A stretch of 62,847 nt of DNA, filler included, from Stramenopiles sp. TOSAG23-6 (taxonomy: Eukaryota), in assembly GCA_900128565.1 (NCBI GenBank). It is 38 parts of 38 records of this genome, joined end to end, with 100 filler letters (N's around TTAATTAATTAA, not from the genome) between each part and the next. Parts side by side here need not be neighbours in the genome. Positions count along the whole stretch, not along the records: positions 14,960 to 16,521 come from LT638867.1; positions 16,622 to 18,183 come from LT638868.1; positions 18,284 to 19,844 come from LT638869.1; positions 19,945 to 21,505 come from LT638870.1; positions 21,606 to 23,165 come from LT638871.1; positions 23,266 to 24,825 come from LT638872.1; positions 24,926 to 26,484 come from LT638873.1; positions 26,585 to 28,143 come from LT638874.1; 30 more parts are not named here. One strand, written 5' to 3'. Both the position numbers and the translations under genes were made by a program. Under the pieces are notes generated by a model. It did not search any database, was not told the origin of the DNA, and saw only the letters and a list, made by a program, of their open reading frames with translations. The first letter of the stretch is position 1. Each line of letters opens with the position of its first letter. Below, in pieces: positions 14,860 through 62,790 of this stretch.

Positions 14860-15017
14860 NNNNNNNNNNNNNNNNNNNNNNNNNNNNNNNNNNNNNNNNN
14901 NNNTTAATTAATTAANNNNNNNNNNNNNNNNNNNNNNNNNNNNNNNNNNNNNNNNNNNNTTTCATACGAAATTTCGTACCTAACGATTTTTTTTTGAAAT
15001 ATTTTTTCACAATACGT

Positions 15018-16225
15018 ATACCTTTACACTGGGCCGCGCTACAATGTCACTGGAATGTTATTGATACTCTTCTTCGACATGGTGATGCAAAAGCTCAATT
15101 GGATGCGAAAGATAGCACAAATTGCAACTCGGAAGAATTAGCTCGAGAAAAATCTACTAGAATTGAAGGTGATAAAATGCATAGATACGTACACCTTGCA
15201 GATTTACTTCAAAAAGAACGGAAAAAACTAAATTATTTTAGTTATTTTACTGGGGATCGGAAAGTCAAGTGGTCAATGATGGGTGGAGTAGGTGCTTGGT
15301 TCTTTACATTTCTCGCGCTATTTGAGTGGTCTATTTCCTACTTTCTATTTTTTATGTATATGATTGATTACGTCTCTTATCGTTCAATTGTATTATTGAT
15401 ATTTGGAATTACGTCTTTTCTTCAAATTTATTTTTGGTACAATACTACGTTTAGTGATCCGGGTTACGTCACTGACAAACAAAGAAAATTTTTACCGAAA
15501 TTTGGTAAAAGTATCAGAATCCTTCGGGAGAAATACGAAAAAGCTCTCGAGTGCTCAGCTGATACACATTTACCAATGAATGTCACTGAATCAATAGTAC
15601 GACCTTTTCGTAGTAAACACGACTCAGCGACGGATCGAACAGTTCTTCGATTTGATCATTTTTGTCCATGGATGAATAATGTATTTTTTATTTTTTTTTT
15701 CAATTTATAATTTATTTTCGTACGAAATTTTGTACCTAACGAATTTTAAGTTTTTTTTTCAAATATTTTTCCAAAATACATGCGATTGGACAAAAAAATT
15801 ACTTTTATTTTGTAATGTTTTTATTTATAACTGTACCTCTGTCGTGTTCATGGATGACATTAGGACATACATATCTATTATACGAGAACGGTGGAAGAGG
15901 CAGTACATGGGCTATATCAAGAAAAAATCCTCTCCTCGCTTTTTGGTTTTTTCATTATTTTATATACTTTATATATTCCATATTATTGGGAGCGCAGCAT
16001 TGGCACCTAATATCAAAAAATCTGACTACAAATGAAATGATTAATTCATGGAAATATCCTTATTTCAAAGATAGTACTGGTACATTTAAGAATCCATTTG
16101 ATAAAGGAAAATTTCATAATTTTGTAGATTTTTTTAGTGGTTCAGAAAAAATTGTATTGCCAGCTAAAGAAATATTTGAAGATGATGGAACTATTGAGGT
16201 CTTTGGAAGCGACCGAGTGGTATGA
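15018..16225 (+). CDS. Ankyrin-repeat DHHC palmitoyltransferase (ZDHHC13/17/Akr1-like), 3' part; intron 15681-15781
   Basis: Ankyrin PLHWAA, DPGY, RPFRSKH...RFDHFCPWMNN|AIGQKNY, NLTTNEMIN, NPFDKG. Confidence 0.9.
15681..15781 (+). other. GT-AT intron
   Basis: AAT|GTATTTTT...TTCGTACGAAATTTTGTACCTAAC...CCAAAATACAT|GCG restores CPWMNNAIGQKN. The AG at 15749-15750 would cause a frameshift. Confidence 0.88.
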
Positions 16226-16691
16226 TTTTTTAAGGTAACCCGGTAACCTTTCAAAAAAAAAAAAAAATCTTGGGTACAACATTTCGTACAAAAAAAAAAT
16301 AAAACCTTTAAAAGCATATACTGTTACTATTTTAATAATAAAAAAACGTTAGTTTAACAAGCACAAATTTATATTTTTATCTCATAAAATTGTTCAACCT
16401 TGAAAATAATTGTTTGTGAATTGGAGGAGTTGTTCTTTGCTGAACAACTCTAACATTTGATGTATGTTGGAAAAATATTTCAAAAAAAAAACTTAAATTT
16501 GTTAGGTACAAAATTTCGTACNNNNNNNNNNNNNNNNNNNNNNNNNNNNNNNNNNNNNNNNNNNNTTAATTAATTAANNNNNNNNNNNNNNNNNNNNNNN
16601 NNNNNNNNNNNNNNNNNNNNNAATTTTTTTTTTTTTCCTAATGTTTTTTTTTTTCGGTAAAAAAAAAAAAATAAATATTTTTCACAGTTCA

Positions 16692-18045
16692 TGCGAGTTT
16701 TATTTTTAATTTTCCAGGAATGGAATTACCTGATAAAGATGATGTTGGTTTTGCGGCATATATGTACGTCTTTAACAATAATTAGAATAATTTTTTTTAA
16801 AATTTTTTTTTCGTACGAAAATTTGTACCTAACAAAACAAATGTAAAAAATGTTTGAAATTTTTCTTACAATATATGCACGATGCTCAACTTCAAGCAGT
16901 GACTAAATTATCTGAATATGATTATAATACTCAAATTGATTTAGATTTAATACATGATTGCAATGATAATAATAATGATATTTTGAATTACAATGAAAAC
17001 AATGAAAAAAGTACAATGTCTACTGAATTTTGTCAGGAAGTTACAGGTACCGAACCTTTACTGTCACCTATGCCTGTACGTTTTCATCATAAATTTCTAA
17101 TTTTTTTTTTTTTTTGGTTTTTTTTCGTAAAAAAAGTTTGTACCTAACAATTTTTTTTTTTTAGGGAAAAAAATTTTTTTGAAATATTTTTTCAAAACAC
17201 ATGCAAAAGAAAATATTGACAGAGGTATTCAATTAAATAGTACTTTAAATAGTACTTTTGGGAATATCCAAAAGTCAATCAGTACCTCGGAAAGAATAGG
17301 TGTTGAAATGTCTGACGACTCAATTTCTACATGTATACAAAATTCTGTACTTAAAGGAGGAGGAGAAAAATCGACATCTACTGAAATATTTACAGAAGGA
17401 TTTTTATTTTGTGCAATATTTGATAAATTGGAACATTTTTTAGAAAATTCTTTGGAACAAAATATTGCATTATCTGGTGTTTTTACAAAATTAGTTCAAT
17501 CACCCGAAATATCGGTGTATAATTTTTTATTATCCGAACCAAATGTAGATGATAACCCTAACCCTAATCGTAATAATCCGAATAACGATGATAATGAACA
17601 AAATATAAATGAAAGTTCAATTGAAACTTCAAAAGTTGTAAAACATCGAACACTTTTGAGTATACTAAAAATTCTTTGGTCAAATGCAAAAAAACAAATA
17701 GTAAAAATTAATAATTTTGATACTATTTTAAAATTAAAAAGAAATCAACTTGGAATTGACCAAAATGAGACATTCAATGATAATGTCATTGACACTGTAC
17801 ATCAAAATAATAATACTGATAATTCTGTATTTGTTGAAGCTTATGTATGTTTTACTTTTTTTCAAATTTGAAATTATTTTTTTTTTGAAAATTTTGTACC
17901 TAACAAATTTTTTAGATTTTTTTTGAAATATTTTTCCAAAATACATATTGTCTTATACGAATTTATTAGAGAATTATCATCTGTTATTGAAGCGAGAGAA
18001 ATTGTAATGACAATTCGAGAAAATCCATTTTTTTTAACACAATGA
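16692..18045 (+). CDS. FHIP/FAM160 (FTS-Hook-interacting) family protein, C-terminal part; introns 16764-16876, 17076-17202, 17845-17946 (all GT-AT)
   Basis: GFAAYM|HDAQ, FTEGFLFCAIFDKLEHFLENSLEQNIALSGVFTKL, VEAY|IVLYEFIRELSS. Confidence 0.75.
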
Positions 18046-18459
18046 AAAAGTTAAGTATTGATACTGTGAGTCCGTTGTAATATAGAAAAATGTTTTTAAT
18101 TTTTTTTGTTAGGTATGAAATGTACAAAAAAAAAAAAAAAAAAAAAAAAACTTACTATACGTAAACATTCAGCGTTTGTTTTTNNNNNNNNNNNNNNNNN
18201 NNNNNNNNNNNNNNNNNNNNNNNNNNNTTAATTAATTAANNNNNNNNNNNNNNNNNNNNNNNNNNNNNNNNNNNNNNNNNNNNATCATGAATTTCAAATT
18301 TTTTTTTTTTTTTTTTCATACGAAATTTTGTAATTAAGAGGTTTTTTTTGAGGTTTTATTCTAAACGTTTATCATGAATTTCAAATTTATTTATTTTTTC
18401 TCATACCAAATGTTGTACCTAAACAAAAAAGATTTTTTTTTTAAACTTTTACAACACAT

Positions 18460-61201: not shown

Positions 61202-61538
61202 NNNNNNNNNNNNNNNNNNNNNNNNNNNNNNNNNNNNNNNNNNNNTTAATTAATTAANNNNNNNNNNNNNNNNNNNNNNNNNNNNNNNNNNNNNNNNNNN
61301 NTGTATTTTGGAAAAATATTTCAAAAAAAATCTAAAAAAAATTGTTAGGTACAAAATTTTTATAAAAAAAAAAATCGATATTTTTGTTTAAAAAAAAAAT
61401 AAAACGTACATATAAATCATTTAATAAAACACGAAACTCAAACCAGGATAATTTTGTAGTGTGAAAAATATTCTTGTTGTAGTAAAAAATATGTTGTTAG
61501 GTATGAAATTATCTTTCAAAAAAAAAAAAAAAATTTAA

Positions 61539-61585
<47 letters not shown>

Positions 61586-61841
61586 ATTGAATTAAATTGA
61601 ATTGAATTGAATGATGAAAACAAACTCAAACGTGAATTATTTACATTTGTTTTGGATGTATTTGTACTATATTCTTGTATGTGTAGTGAAATAATATATA
61701 ACAATATAAACATGTTTAGAATCCCGAATTTTCTATAAAAATATTTCTACTATTTTCCATTCTAGAAAAAAAAAAATAAAAAAATAAAAAAAAATCGTTA
61801 GGTACGAAATTTCGTACGAAAAAAAAATAAAATAAACCTAC

Positions 61842-62790
61842 ATTAAAGATGTGAGTAACTCGCGAAGCGAAAAGGAAGAAAATAATTTCAATAATTCTGG
61901 AAGTATTAAGATTTCATCTATATCACATGAATATCGTATTCTACCCAATCTTGGACGAAATAGTATAGAATTTTGTAGGAAAATTTCATAATGAATATTT
62001 TCAATTATTTTTGATGATTTTGGAGATTTTGGAGATTTTGGAGATTTTTTTTGGATGACTTGAAACGAAATTTGATGTAAAGCTTGCTGGAAACCAATGA
62101 AATCAATACCAGGTAAGTTTTTTTTATGTGTTTGATGTGTTTTATGTGTTTGATGTGTTTTTTGTGTTTTTTGTGTGTAAGTACCAATAATATCTTTATC
62201 ATTTTTATCATTTTTAGATTGAACCAAATTTTGAAATATTTTACAAGCGGTTTTCGTGTCAAGTTTGGCATTTTCTGTCGTCTCTGTATTTTGTTTTATA
62301 CGAAATTTTGTATTATTTATTTGTTTTGTATTTTTCATAATGATGTCACAATCTTCCAAAAATTTCAGCCATTCTCTTTTTCGTAAACAATTAATTAAAT
62401 TAGGCTCAATAAATGTTGAATAATAAGTGAAAATTCTCCATAACTCATGTTTTGTGAATTAATATTTGAAAAAAAATCTAAAAAAATTTGTTAGGTACAA
62501 AATTTCGTACGAAAAAAAAAAAAAAATTGAAAAAAAAATAAAACATACATACTGTCGATCACTTTGTTGTTGACCATTTGATATTTTTGAAAGTTTTGAA
62601 AGTTTTATATTTTTTATATTTTTTGATGTATTGTTTGATGTATTGTTTGATAATTTTGTAGTATTTATTATTGATTTTGTGTTGCCATTGTAGACTTTTA
62701 TTAATTCATTCTTTGAATCTAAATCGTTGTTTTCTATACAATGAGTTGAAACACTATTTTGATCTTTTTTGTGTATATTGTTTTGCATTA
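61842..62790 (-). CDS. Unknown protein fragment; GT-AT intron 62447-62548
   Basis: In-frame join RQY|ELWRIFTYYS; a long open frame follows. Confidence 0.55.

What the first reader, a model, noticed from the sequence alone, without database searches (positions are those of the whole stretch)
14960..62548. A eukaryote whose dominant intron class is GT-AT, not GT-AG
Seen: of 33 introns with both ends visible, 29 end in AT (mostly CAT; also TAT and AAT), 2 in AG, 1 in GT and 1 in TT. Conserved motifs fix the boundaries: DHHC CPWMNN|AIG (15681-15781), GH31 QT|WSGDN (27367-27452), kinase KDPT|KRLT (26291-26387), EF-hand DTDY|DGF (25974-26066), DRG NRLH|KDI (45971-46122), PHD YHMAC|IG (35666-35844) and CDC14 PGSVI|GPQQ (51737-51845). 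Nearby AGs (15750, 17915) frameshift. Known: the major spliceosome recognises the 3' site through G(-1):G(+1) and A(-2):branch-A contacts, so AG is near-invariant. Lineages rich in non-canonical introns exist (larvaceans, euglenozoans, Amoebophrya), but I do not know one with a GT-AT majority. Inference: donors GTAYGT and a CTAAC branch look U2-type, so this organism may have a spliceosome with a rewired 3' splice site.
Basis: partly seen in the sequence, partly recalled or inferred. Interest (0 to 1): 0.96.

Follow-up and report, generated by a model that had tools for sequence, protein, structure and literature searches.

The report
Repeat-derived introns ending in AT
Genes of an uncultured, AT-rich marine protist are interrupted by many copies of one roughly 100-base repeat that looks like a normal intron but ends in AT instead of AG, which, if RNA data confirm its removal, would mean a splicing machinery that accepts an unusual intron end.

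Summary
I curated 30 complete interruptions: 28 are GT-AT, 1 is GC-AT and 1 is GT-AG. Removing them exactly restores open frames. Eight junctions are fixed to the residue by homologues or Pfam profile coordinates. An independent seawater DNA run shows the same exon-intron borders.

The window is a chain of 38 contigs of about 1.55 kb joined by N linkers. The "introns" are also not independent: they are copies of one repeat family, 63-91% identical to its consensus, with a GTAYGT start, a CTAAC motif, T runs and a YAT end. This is an introner-like element. Copies next to clear coding frames lie in the sense direction (34 sense, 1 antisense, and that one is a chance match; p = 2e-9). That points to removal from RNA rather than from DNA.

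No exon-exon RNA junction could be seen, because the one contig I could lay reads on had almost no RNA cover of its exons. The RNA runs also hold unspliced element-plus-flank contigs. Splicing at GT...AT is therefore inferred, not shown (confidence about 0.65). Whether this class dominates genome-wide cannot be told from this repeat-biased sample.

The parts
   Evidence: frame restored, 42/31 codons open
15681..15781 (+). family intron in DHHC gene, GT-AT
   Evidence: Pfam DHHC profile 10-41 ends at the last upstream residue; 43-123 starts at downstream residue 2; 240/147 codons open
16764..16876 (+). family intron, GT-AT (TAT)
17076..17202 (+). family intron, GT-AT
17845..17946 (+). family intron, GT-AT
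22213..22310 (-). family intron, GT-AT
25367..25592 (-). composite (two-unit) intron in CDPK gene, GT-AT
   Evidence: DLR|QVLG matches P0001
25692..25831 (-). diverged family intron in CDPK gene, GT-AT (AAT)
   Evidence: TAC|LDQ matches P0001
25974..26066 (-). family intron in CDPK EF-hand, GT-AT (TAT)
   Evidence: DTDY|DGF matches P0001
26291..26387 (-). diverged family intron in CDPK kinase domain, GT-AT, no alternative register
26930..27031 (-). family intron in GH31 gene, GT-AT
   Evidence: border seen in DNA run X4 records 1 and 2
27197..27286 (-). diverged family intron in GH31 gene; GT-AT or, shifted by 4, GT-AG (same mRNA)
   Evidence: GW|VGNG gap-free in 49 of 56 alignments; registers
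27367..27452 (-). family intron splitting QT|WSGDN of GH31, GT-AT
   Evidence: 35 of 59 alignments gap-free
27833..27923 (-). family intron in GH31 gene, GT-AT (TAT), no alternative register
   Evidence: 3' border in X4 record 3
29006..29235 (-). long family intron with two 73-base units holding telomere-like CCCTAA repeats, GT-AT (AAT)
   Evidence: 174/254 codons open; tandem units
30065..30156 (+). family intron in DEAH-type helicase gene, GT-AT
30628..30733 (+). the one family intron ending in AG; the exon before it also ends ATACAG
30841..30932 (+). family intron after GRAGR motif; GT-AT, or GT-GT shifted by 2 (same mRNA)
31066..31171 (+). family intron, GT-AT
34994..35179 (-). two-unit intron; GT-AT reading is in frame, boundary least certain
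35321..35509 (-). family intron, GT-AT (TAT)
   Evidence: 81/50 codons open
35666..35844 (-). family intron in PHD-finger gene, GT-AT
45971..46122 (-). family intron in DRG gene (TGS domain), GT-AT
   Evidence: TGS profile 1-27 | 28-59
46670..46774 (-). diverged family intron; GT-AT, or 46674-46772 as GT-TT (different protein)
49458..49605 (+). family intron, GT-AT
50159..50303 (-). family intron right after ATGG, GT-AT (AAT)
50601..50728 (-). family intron, GT-AT (AAT)
51019..51132 (-). family intron, GT-AT (TAT)
51737..51845 (+). family intron in CDC14-like phosphatase gene, GC-AT
   Evidence: DSPc domain upstream
62447..62548 (-). family intron, GT-AT

Best explanation
The interruptions are copies of one mobile, introner-like repeat of about 90-130 bases (some are double units). 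The repeat has spread into the coding exons of many unrelated genes of an AT-rich marine protist. The nearest named protein comes from a MAST-3 stramenopile.

Each copy carries a U2-type start (GTAYGT), a CTAAC branch-like motif 23-55 bases before its end in 28 of 30, T runs, and a YAT end. The most likely mechanism is that the pre-mRNA is spliced by the major-type spliceosome exactly from the G of GT to the T of AT. U then takes the place of the usual last G, so the mRNA is restored. The final AT may come partly from how the element inserts, as a 2-base repeat of an AT target.

Shown: the anatomy, the exact frame restoration, the sense-strand bias and the family relationship. Inferred: that removal happens in RNA, that the spliceosome does it, and that the cut is in the GT...AT register.
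For: - Termini: 29 of 30 end in AT. Positions A-2 (30 of 30), T-1 (29 of 30), G+1 (30 of 30) and T+2 (29 of 30) are the most constant, while -3 varies.
- Old copies: the 8 copies no more than 68% identical to the consensus all keep the AT end.
- Junctions: eight are fixed to the residue.
- AG alternatives: they are excluded at 7 of those 8 junctions (read).
- Orientation: among 53 core copies, 34 are sense, 1 is antisense (a chance 12-mer), 2 are mixed and 16 give no call; p = 2e-9. DNA-level excision would not care about strand.
- AG is not avoided: 10 of the 29 AT introns hold an AG 3-17 bases after the branch-like motif, often as TTTTAG. Using it would break the frame in most of them, yet these copies sit in conserved genes.
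- Independent DNA: run X4 has contigs running from exon into the element at three 3' ends and two 5' ends, with no base change at the termini. Its listed records show no exon-exon DNA form.
- Chemistry: GT-AT splicing is feasible. It is a rare terminus of U12-type introns, and one conserved U2-type case is known (PMC1557818, passages).
- Public gene model: P0041, a GT-AG-forced model of this contig, loses conserved residues such as the WS of WSGDN.
Against: - No exon-exon RNA junction was seen. On the one contig I could lay (26585-28143), RNA cover of the exons was a single 232-base contig inside one exon, in X8.
- The three RNA runs hold many element contigs, including the element joined to unique flanks, which is the unspliced form. 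X8 also has 61-base contigs matching the inside of intron 26930-27031 with 0-1 differences, at a depth (5.4-5.7) like that of the exon contig (6.5). This may be pre-mRNA, retained introns or carried-over DNA.
- In 12 of 30 an AT-AC register gives the same mRNA, and in 1 of 30 a GT-AG register does.
- All copies share their ends by descent, so the count overstates the independent evidence.
- The spliceosome parts could not be inspected.
Confidence: 0.65

Rival explanations
1. The elements are removed by the spliceosome, but in another register where the flanks allow it. Copies whose upstream exon ends in AT would be cut as AT...AC, the classical compatible pair, so there would be a mixture of intron types.
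For: The 5' exon ends in AT in 16 of 30 against 10.6% expected (p = 8.5e-9). An AT-AC register gives the same mRNA in 12 of 30.
Against: In 18 of 30 no AT-AC register exists, and 3 of 30 have no alternative register at all. The start would then read ATGTAYGT, which fits neither the U2-type nor the U12-type AT-AC starts that I recall. One rule, GT-AT, covers 29 of 30.
Confidence: 0.1
2. The elements are removed by a minor-type (U12-like) spliceosome, which is known to tolerate non-AG ends including GT-AT.
For: GT-AT is a documented rare U12-type terminus: 7 cases in Table 2 of PMC1557818 (passages). It is also listed in PMC8199999 (passage). The start GTATGTTTT shares 7 of 9 bases with the recalled U12 consensus GTATCCTTT.
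Against: The CTAAC motif lies 23-55 bases from the end in 28 of 30, not the roughly 10-20 typical of U12-type introns (recalled). T-rich tracts are present. GTAYGT is the classical U2-type start. No snRNA is in the window.
Confidence: 0.08
3. The elements are removed from RNA by a mechanism that is not spliceosomal and is guided by pairing of the two ends, as proposed for euglenid nonconventional introns and Amoebophrya introners.
For: In 5 of the 8 folded copies the first four bases pair with bases -6 to -3, leaving the final AU unpaired. Short direct repeats overlap the borders, as in the Amoebophrya elements (PMC7789003, passages).
Against: The folds are weak (-5.9 to -11.2 kcal/mol) and no better than shuffles (z from -2.08 to +0.88). 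The end pairing is only 4-7 bases. Strong U2-type start and branch motifs are conserved.
Confidence: 0.07
4. The elements are cut out of the DNA (programmed elimination), or are never removed because the genes are dead or the assembly is faulty.
For: The element has short inverted ends and a 2-base flanking repeat, like a DNA transposon. The RNA runs contain unspliced forms.
Against: The strict sense orientation is not expected for DNA excision or for random insertion into dead genes. Flanking frames are intact and conserved. An independent DNA run shows the element-bearing form, and its listed records show no excised form.
Confidence: 0.06

Closest known systems
Introner elements (transposon-derived introns) of Micromonas, Aureococcus, Symbiodinium, Chrysochromulina and others (PMC9860276, passages)
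   Same: Many similar copies of a short element sit as introns in unrelated genes. Short inverted ends and short flanking repeats overlap the splice sites. Splicing restores the mRNA exactly.
   Different: Described families use GT/GC/GA...AG. Here 29 of 30 end in AT. That survey worked from annotated introns, so it would not have seen a GT-AT family. It does not mention stramenopile MAST lineages (0 hits for 'MAST' or 'stramenopile').
Non-canonical introns and introner elements of Amoebophrya (PMC7789003, passages)
   Same: A marine protist whose repeat-derived introns break the GT-AG rule. Direct repeats of 3-5 bases overlap the borders, which makes the exact cut ambiguous.
   Different: Amoebophrya shows no dominant dinucleotide pair and has 8-20-base inverted repeats that form hairpins. 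Here there is one dominant pair (GT-AT), classical start and branch motifs, and only weak end pairing.
Non-canonical splicing in larvacean tunicates such as Fritillaria (PMC13326754, abstract in listing only)
   Same: A lineage in which most introns escape GT-AG, tied there to changes in U2AF and in snRNA modification.
   Different: That is an animal lineage. I recall AG-AC and AG-AT type ends with a non-GT start. Here the start is canonical and only the last base differs.
Rare GT-AT introns of animals (PMC1557818, passages)
   Same: The same terminal pair. It shows that the chemistry is possible in both U12-type and, rarely, U2-type contexts.
   Different: Those are a handful per genome (7 U12-type cases, and one conserved U2-type case in DGCR2). 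Here it is the rule among the observed introns.

Membership tests
U2-type spliceosomal intron | 5' splice site GT followed by a U1/U6-pairing consensus | tested here: met
   G+1 30 of 30, T+2 29 of 30, A+3 27 of 30, Y+4 29 of 30, G+5 22 of 30, T+6 28 of 30
U2-type spliceosomal intron | branch motif (yUnAy / CTAAC) followed by a pyrimidine tract upstream of the 3' end | tested here: met
   A CTAA-type motif is present in 30 of 30, 23-55 bases from the end in 28 of 30, with T runs after it. The branch itself is not mapped.
U2-type spliceosomal intron | 3' terminal AG | tested here: not met
   AT in 29 of 30 and AG in 1 of 30. A GT-AG register is possible in 1 further case.
U2-type spliceosomal intron | removed from the transcript, with exon-exon junctions in RNA | tested here: inconclusive
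   No RNA contig crossed a junction on 26585-28143. Unspliced forms are present in the RNA runs. Only one contig could be laid.
U12-type intron | 5' site RTATCCTT and branch site TCCTTAAC about 10-20 bases from the 3' end (consensus recalled) | tested here: not met
   The start is GTAYGTTTT. The CTAAC motif lies 23-55 bases from the end in 28 of 30.
Introner element | many similar copies as introns in unrelated genes | tested here: met
   21 of 21 introns of 130 bases or less align over their full length, 63-91% identical to the consensus. They lie in DHHC, CDPK, GH31, helicase, DRG, CDC14 and PHD genes. In DNA run X4 the depth over the element is 9,000-63,000 against 6.5-8.7 over the exons, a rough hint of thousands of copies.
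Introner element | sense-strand bias within genes | tested here: met
   34 sense against 1 antisense (a spurious match), p = 2e-9
Introner element | target-site duplication and terminal inverted repeats of a DNA transposon | tested here: inconclusive
   A direct repeat of 2 bases or more between exon end and intron end occurs in 17 of 30, and a repeat of 0-1 bases in 13 of 30. The inverted ends are only GTAT(G)TTTT / AAAATAC. No autonomous element was seen.
Ciliate-type internally eliminated sequence | orientation-independent DNA excision; the excised form dominates in DNA | tested here: not met
   Strict sense orientation. The DNA run shows the element-bearing form, and its listed records show no exon-exon contig.
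Euglenid-type nonconventional intron | stable RNA structure that brings variable, non-canonical ends together | tested here: not met
   Fold z-scores from -2.08 to +0.88 for 8 copies. The ends are uniform, not variable.

The most novel reading that the evidence does not exclude
A marine stramenopile-like lineage has a major spliceosome that accepts, or prefers, YAU as the 3' splice site and ignores well-placed AGs. This has allowed a transposon-like element that makes an AT flank on insertion to colonise thousands of coding sites as working GT-AT introns. It would be the first lineage where the last intron base is U by rule, and a natural experiment on how the first and last intron bases are matched in the second catalytic step.
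Probability: 0.5. Interest if true: 0.9.

Novelty: new variant of a known kind. Interest (0 to 1): 0.8.

Why it matters
The terminal AG is one of the most constant signals in eukaryotic gene expression. A lineage in which a whole, recently expanded intron family ends in AT while keeping a classical start and branch motif would isolate the question of how the spliceosome reads the last intron base. It would also show how a mobile element can exploit, or drive, a change in that rule.

There is a practical side too. Gene predictors that force GT-AG mis-build these genes. The library protein P0041 lacks conserved residues of its GH31 domain. Gene catalogues and 'pseudogene' calls for such uncultured protists may therefore be badly distorted.

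Tried and rejected
- **RNA junctions.** The listed joints there are repeat-to-repeat artefacts. The small shares of RNA runs X7-X11 (0.05-0.11) may largely be element words, and I draw no habitat or expression claim from them.
- **Spliced transcripts in the protein library.** CDPK exon, longer proteins: only a 62% relative. GH31 exon, similar lengths: nothing. SBDS: a 99% identical protein from a 7.3-kb contig, a gene without introns, so not informative.
- **The element in other collections.** A 19-base core gave 3 chance hits in JGI metagenome contigs at 38-44% GC. It gave 1 chance hit in a Bacteroidales MAG and none in viral contigs.
- **Whole genome.** None is held, so no genome-wide tally and no check of spliceosome genes was possible.
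- **Rfam.** No family matched in the window.
- **Automatic boundary picking.** Picking by open frame alone chose wrong A-rich ends for several copies, so I replaced it by curation.
- **AG alternatives.** 21 of 29 AT introns have some AG within -45 to +60 bases that leaves 25 or more open codons. These either delete 1-17 codons or change frame. They are rejected only where homology is available (7 of 8 junctions).
- **Alignment method.** MAFFT on 41 GH31 proteins timed out, and I used BLASTP instead.
- **Literature.** Searches and passages found no report of a GT-AT-majority lineage or of MAST-3 splice sites.

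
Full report
**What the window is**

The 62,847 bases are not one stretch of chromosome. Pairs of 44-N blocks around the words TTAATTAATTAA recur every 1.65 kb or so. They cut the window into 38 pieces of 1,563 down to 1,546 bases, in order of falling length. 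This is a chain of small assembly contigs.
- Pieces 2-9 (1664-14859) are eight identical copies of one contig.
- Pieces 24 and 25 are identical to each other.
- That leaves 30 distinct contigs at 20-37% GC.
- No whole genome is held for the window.
- Many contigs begin or end inside the same repeat, which is why they are short. The sample is therefore enriched for that repeat.

**What the 'introns' are**

A 9-base core (GTACCTAAC) occurs 62 times in the window, always within the same wider sequence context. The 21 curated introns of 130 bases or less align over their whole length. They are 63-91% identical to a consensus that has these parts:
- a start of GTAYG-TTTT;
- a T-rich stretch with CAATTTCGAAT-like words;
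- the block CRTACGAAATTTTGTACCTAAC;
- T runs;
- an end of GAAATATTTTTCMAAATAC-AT.

Longer introns are double units or carry inserts. In an independent seawater DNA run (X4), summed depth over the element bins is about 9,000-63,000 against 6.5-8.7 over the exons. This hints at thousands of copies. The tool warns that such sums include other organisms and are not a copy number.

**Checking the observation**

I curated 30 interruptions with both ends visible.
- Exact removal gives a frame open on both sides: at least 17 codons on the shorter side, and often more than 100 on one or both sides.
- Termini are GT-AT in 28, GC-AT in 1 (51737-51845) and GT-AG in 1 (30628-30733).
- The last three bases are CAT in 17, TAT in 7, AAT in 5 and CAG in 1.
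- Phases 0, 1 and 2 number 14, 13 and 3.
- At least ten further copies cut by contig ends show the same ...ACAT end followed by an open frame. Their frames cannot be tested.

Eight junctions are fixed to the residue by outside evidence.
- Four CDPK junctions match a 62% identical homologue, P0001: DP(T/S)|KRLT, DTDY|DGF, TAC|LDQ and DLR|QVLG.
- In the GH31 gene, QT|WSGDN is gap-free within 8 residues either side in 35 of 59 spanning BLASTP alignments to library homologues. GW|VGNG is gap-free in 49 of 56. The other two GH31 junctions fall in variable loops (7 of 58 and 1 of 54 gap-free) and are supported by frame only.
- In the DHHC gene, the upstream exon ends at Pfam profile position 41 and the downstream exon resumes at 42-43.
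- In the TGS domain of the DRG gene, the exons meet at profile positions 27 | 28.

Protein evidence fixes the length and place of the removed piece to within a codon. Among the possible registers, only GT...AT begins with GT.

**Could AG be used after all?**

For the 29 AT introns I listed every AG from 45 bases before to 60 bases after the AT end.
- In 21 of 29, some AG leaves at least 25 open codons. Each of these either deletes 1-17 exon codons or moves into another frame.
- At the eight checked junctions, the AG alternatives would remove residues present in the homologues. Examples are the WSG of WSGDN, 14 residues of an EF-hand, 8-10 residues of the kinase and EF-hand regions, two residues (RQ) and one residue (K).
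- They are excluded at 7 of the 8. The exception is 27197-27286, where shifting both ends by 4 gives a GT-AG intron with the same mRNA.
- AG is not avoided inside the introns. Ten of the 29 AT introns carry an AG 3-17 bases after the branch-like motif, often as TTTTAG. Using it would retain 20-43 bases of the element.

**Independent DNA**

In run X4, three contigs run from exon into element.
- Record 1 spans 26638-26950.
- Record 2 spans 27007-27224.
- Record 3 spans 27448-27860.

All their differences from the window lie in exons, so three AT ends (26930, 27197, 27833) and two starts are reproduced. The listed records include no exon-exon DNA contig.

**RNA or DNA removal?**

Of 53 core copies in the 30 distinct contigs, 34 lie in the sense direction of a clearly longer, non-repetitive open frame next to them. 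One is antisense, 2 are mixed and 16 give no call (binomial p = 2e-9). The single antisense case (52541) is a chance 12-mer inside a coding region, not an element. A strand-specific constraint points to removal from the transcript. So do the sense-strand GTAYGT and CTAAC motifs.

Folding gives no strong structure: -5.9 to -11.2 kcal/mol, with z from -2.08 to +0.88 for 8 copies. In 5 of the 8, the first four bases pair with bases -6 to -3 and leave the final AU free.

**The RNA test failed to decide**

- Runs holding the sequence include three small DNA runs of 'organism A', seawater metagenomes and five seawater metatranscriptomes.
- Reads could only be laid on one contig, because of the linkers.
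- On 26585-28143, the three RNA runs covered the exons with one 232-base contig inside exon 2 (X8, 27510-27741). No joint between exons appeared.
- The same runs contain very many element contigs, some continuing into unrelated flanks. These are unspliced forms from other loci.
- X8 also has 61-base contigs with 0-1 differences inside intron 26930-27031, at a depth like that of the exon contig.
- This is compatible with pre-mRNA, retained introns, capture of A-rich introns by oligo-dT, or carried-over DNA. It neither shows nor excludes efficient splicing.

**How the AT end may arise**

- The exon before the intron ends in AT in 16 of 30, against 10.6% expected (p = 8.5e-9).
- The only intron ending in CAG follows an exon ending in the same ATACAG.
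- Seventeen of 30 have a direct repeat of 2 bases or more between exon end and intron end, and 13 have 0-1 bases.
- The element proper reads GTAT(G)TTTT...AAAATAC, an imperfect inverted repeat.
- This suggests insertion with a 2-base (AT) duplication or by microhomology, so that the final AT is partly made at insertion.
- The older GTACGT-type copies often lack the exon AT, and even the most diverged copies keep the intron AT. This is what selection on a 3' splice signal would give. It is inference.
- Because of the repeat, an AT-AC register is equally possible in 12 of 30.

**Who it is**

- The best named relative of the CDPK exon is a EukProt CDS labelled as a MAST-3 single-cell assembly, at 62% identity.
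- A 99% identical SBDS protein from a sequencing-run assembly exists.
- A GH31 protein 70% identical (P0042) runs without a break across all four intron sites of the window. It then ends in residues (…GMFFF…) that look like read-through into a GTATGTTTT-type element at another position. Relatives therefore seem to carry the family at different sites, which fits recent spread. This rests on protein sequence only.
- I did not try to trace the source record.

**Consequence for annotation**

The library protein P0041 is a gene model of this very contig. It reads into the elements and joins exons at GT-AG pairs. It loses PAIDMFWKGGPGTFAKG, VGDKSDLE, the WS of WSGDN and WKGGDDPNSTEVGKGYS. A paper on MAST single-cell assemblies reports unusually few predicted genes for the two MAST-3 assemblies and 'advanced pseudogenization' of dynein genes in one (PMC5778133, passages). 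Whether non-canonical introns contribute to that is my speculation, and its supplements were not available.

**Comparison with what is known**

- Introners are described in many lineages, but with AG ends (PMC9860276, passages).
- Amoebophrya has more than 60% non-canonical introns and repeat-derived elements, but no dominant terminal pair and long hairpin-forming repeats (PMC7789003, passages).
- GT-AT itself is known only as a rarity (PMC1557818 and PMC8199999, passages).
- My searches found no lineage with GT-AT as the rule.

**Verdict**

The DNA-level observation is real and striking. The best reading is a mobile intron family spliced at GT...AT by a U2-type machinery (confidence 0.65). 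It is a new variant of a known kind, namely non-canonical, transposon-derived introns. The claims 'dominant in the organism' and 'rewired spliceosome' remain open until RNA junctions and the full genome are examined.

Noticed in passing
window 1564-61301 (every ~1.65 kb): The window is a pseudo-molecule of 38 contigs, ordered by falling length (1,563 to 1,546 bases), joined by N44-TTAATTAATTAA-N44 linkers. Genes cannot continue across linkers, and neighbouring pieces are not neighbours in the genome.
   Followed up: yes
window 1664-14859; 38186-41393: Eight identical copies of one 1,562-base contig stand in a row, and two identical 1,554-base contigs follow later. This looks like redundancy of the assembly, not a genomic tandem repeat. 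The repeated contig itself holds five element cores, all on the minus strand.
   Followed up: partly
window 29088-29234: Two 73-base tandem units inside intron 29006-29235 carry telomere-like (CCCTAA)2 words on the gene strand. A loose end in RNA run X9 shows the same TAGGGTTAGGGTTA next to an element. This may be a subfamily with a telomere-like insert.
   Followed up: no
window 45060-45400: A tandem array (period about 58 and 114 bases) holds only the internal part of the element (CATACGAAATTTTGTACCTAAC plus T runs), without the GTAYGT start or the ACAT end. It lies beside the DRG gene.
   Followed up: no
P0041 (library protein) versus window 26585-28143: A public gene model of this contig was built with GT-AG introns only. 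It reads into the elements and deletes conserved GH31 residues. Annotation of this organism is likely distorted genome-wide.
   Followed up: partly
P0042 (library protein, 70% identical GH31): A relative's protein is continuous across the window's four intron sites. It ends in residues that look like translation of a GTATGTTTT-type element at a different site. The family seems shared by relatives, with lineage-specific insertion sites.
   Followed up: partly
window 57420-57620 and 57705-57905 (minus strand): Two identical 67-residue open frames lie 285 bases apart within one contig, next to masked N runs. This is an internal direct repeat of unknown meaning.
   Followed up: no
window 61750-61860: An element copy just after the stop codon of the 206-residue frame (61841-62458, minus strand) starts GTAGGT and ends in TTCTAG. 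It may be a 3'-UTR intron with an AG end, or a decayed copy. It is not counted among the 30.
   Followed up: no
window 20265-20410 (minus strand): An element copy ending in CCAAAATACAT lies inside the 510-residue open frame of the Dna2-like gene, which happens to stay open through it. The long 'ORF' there probably hides another intron.
   Followed up: no
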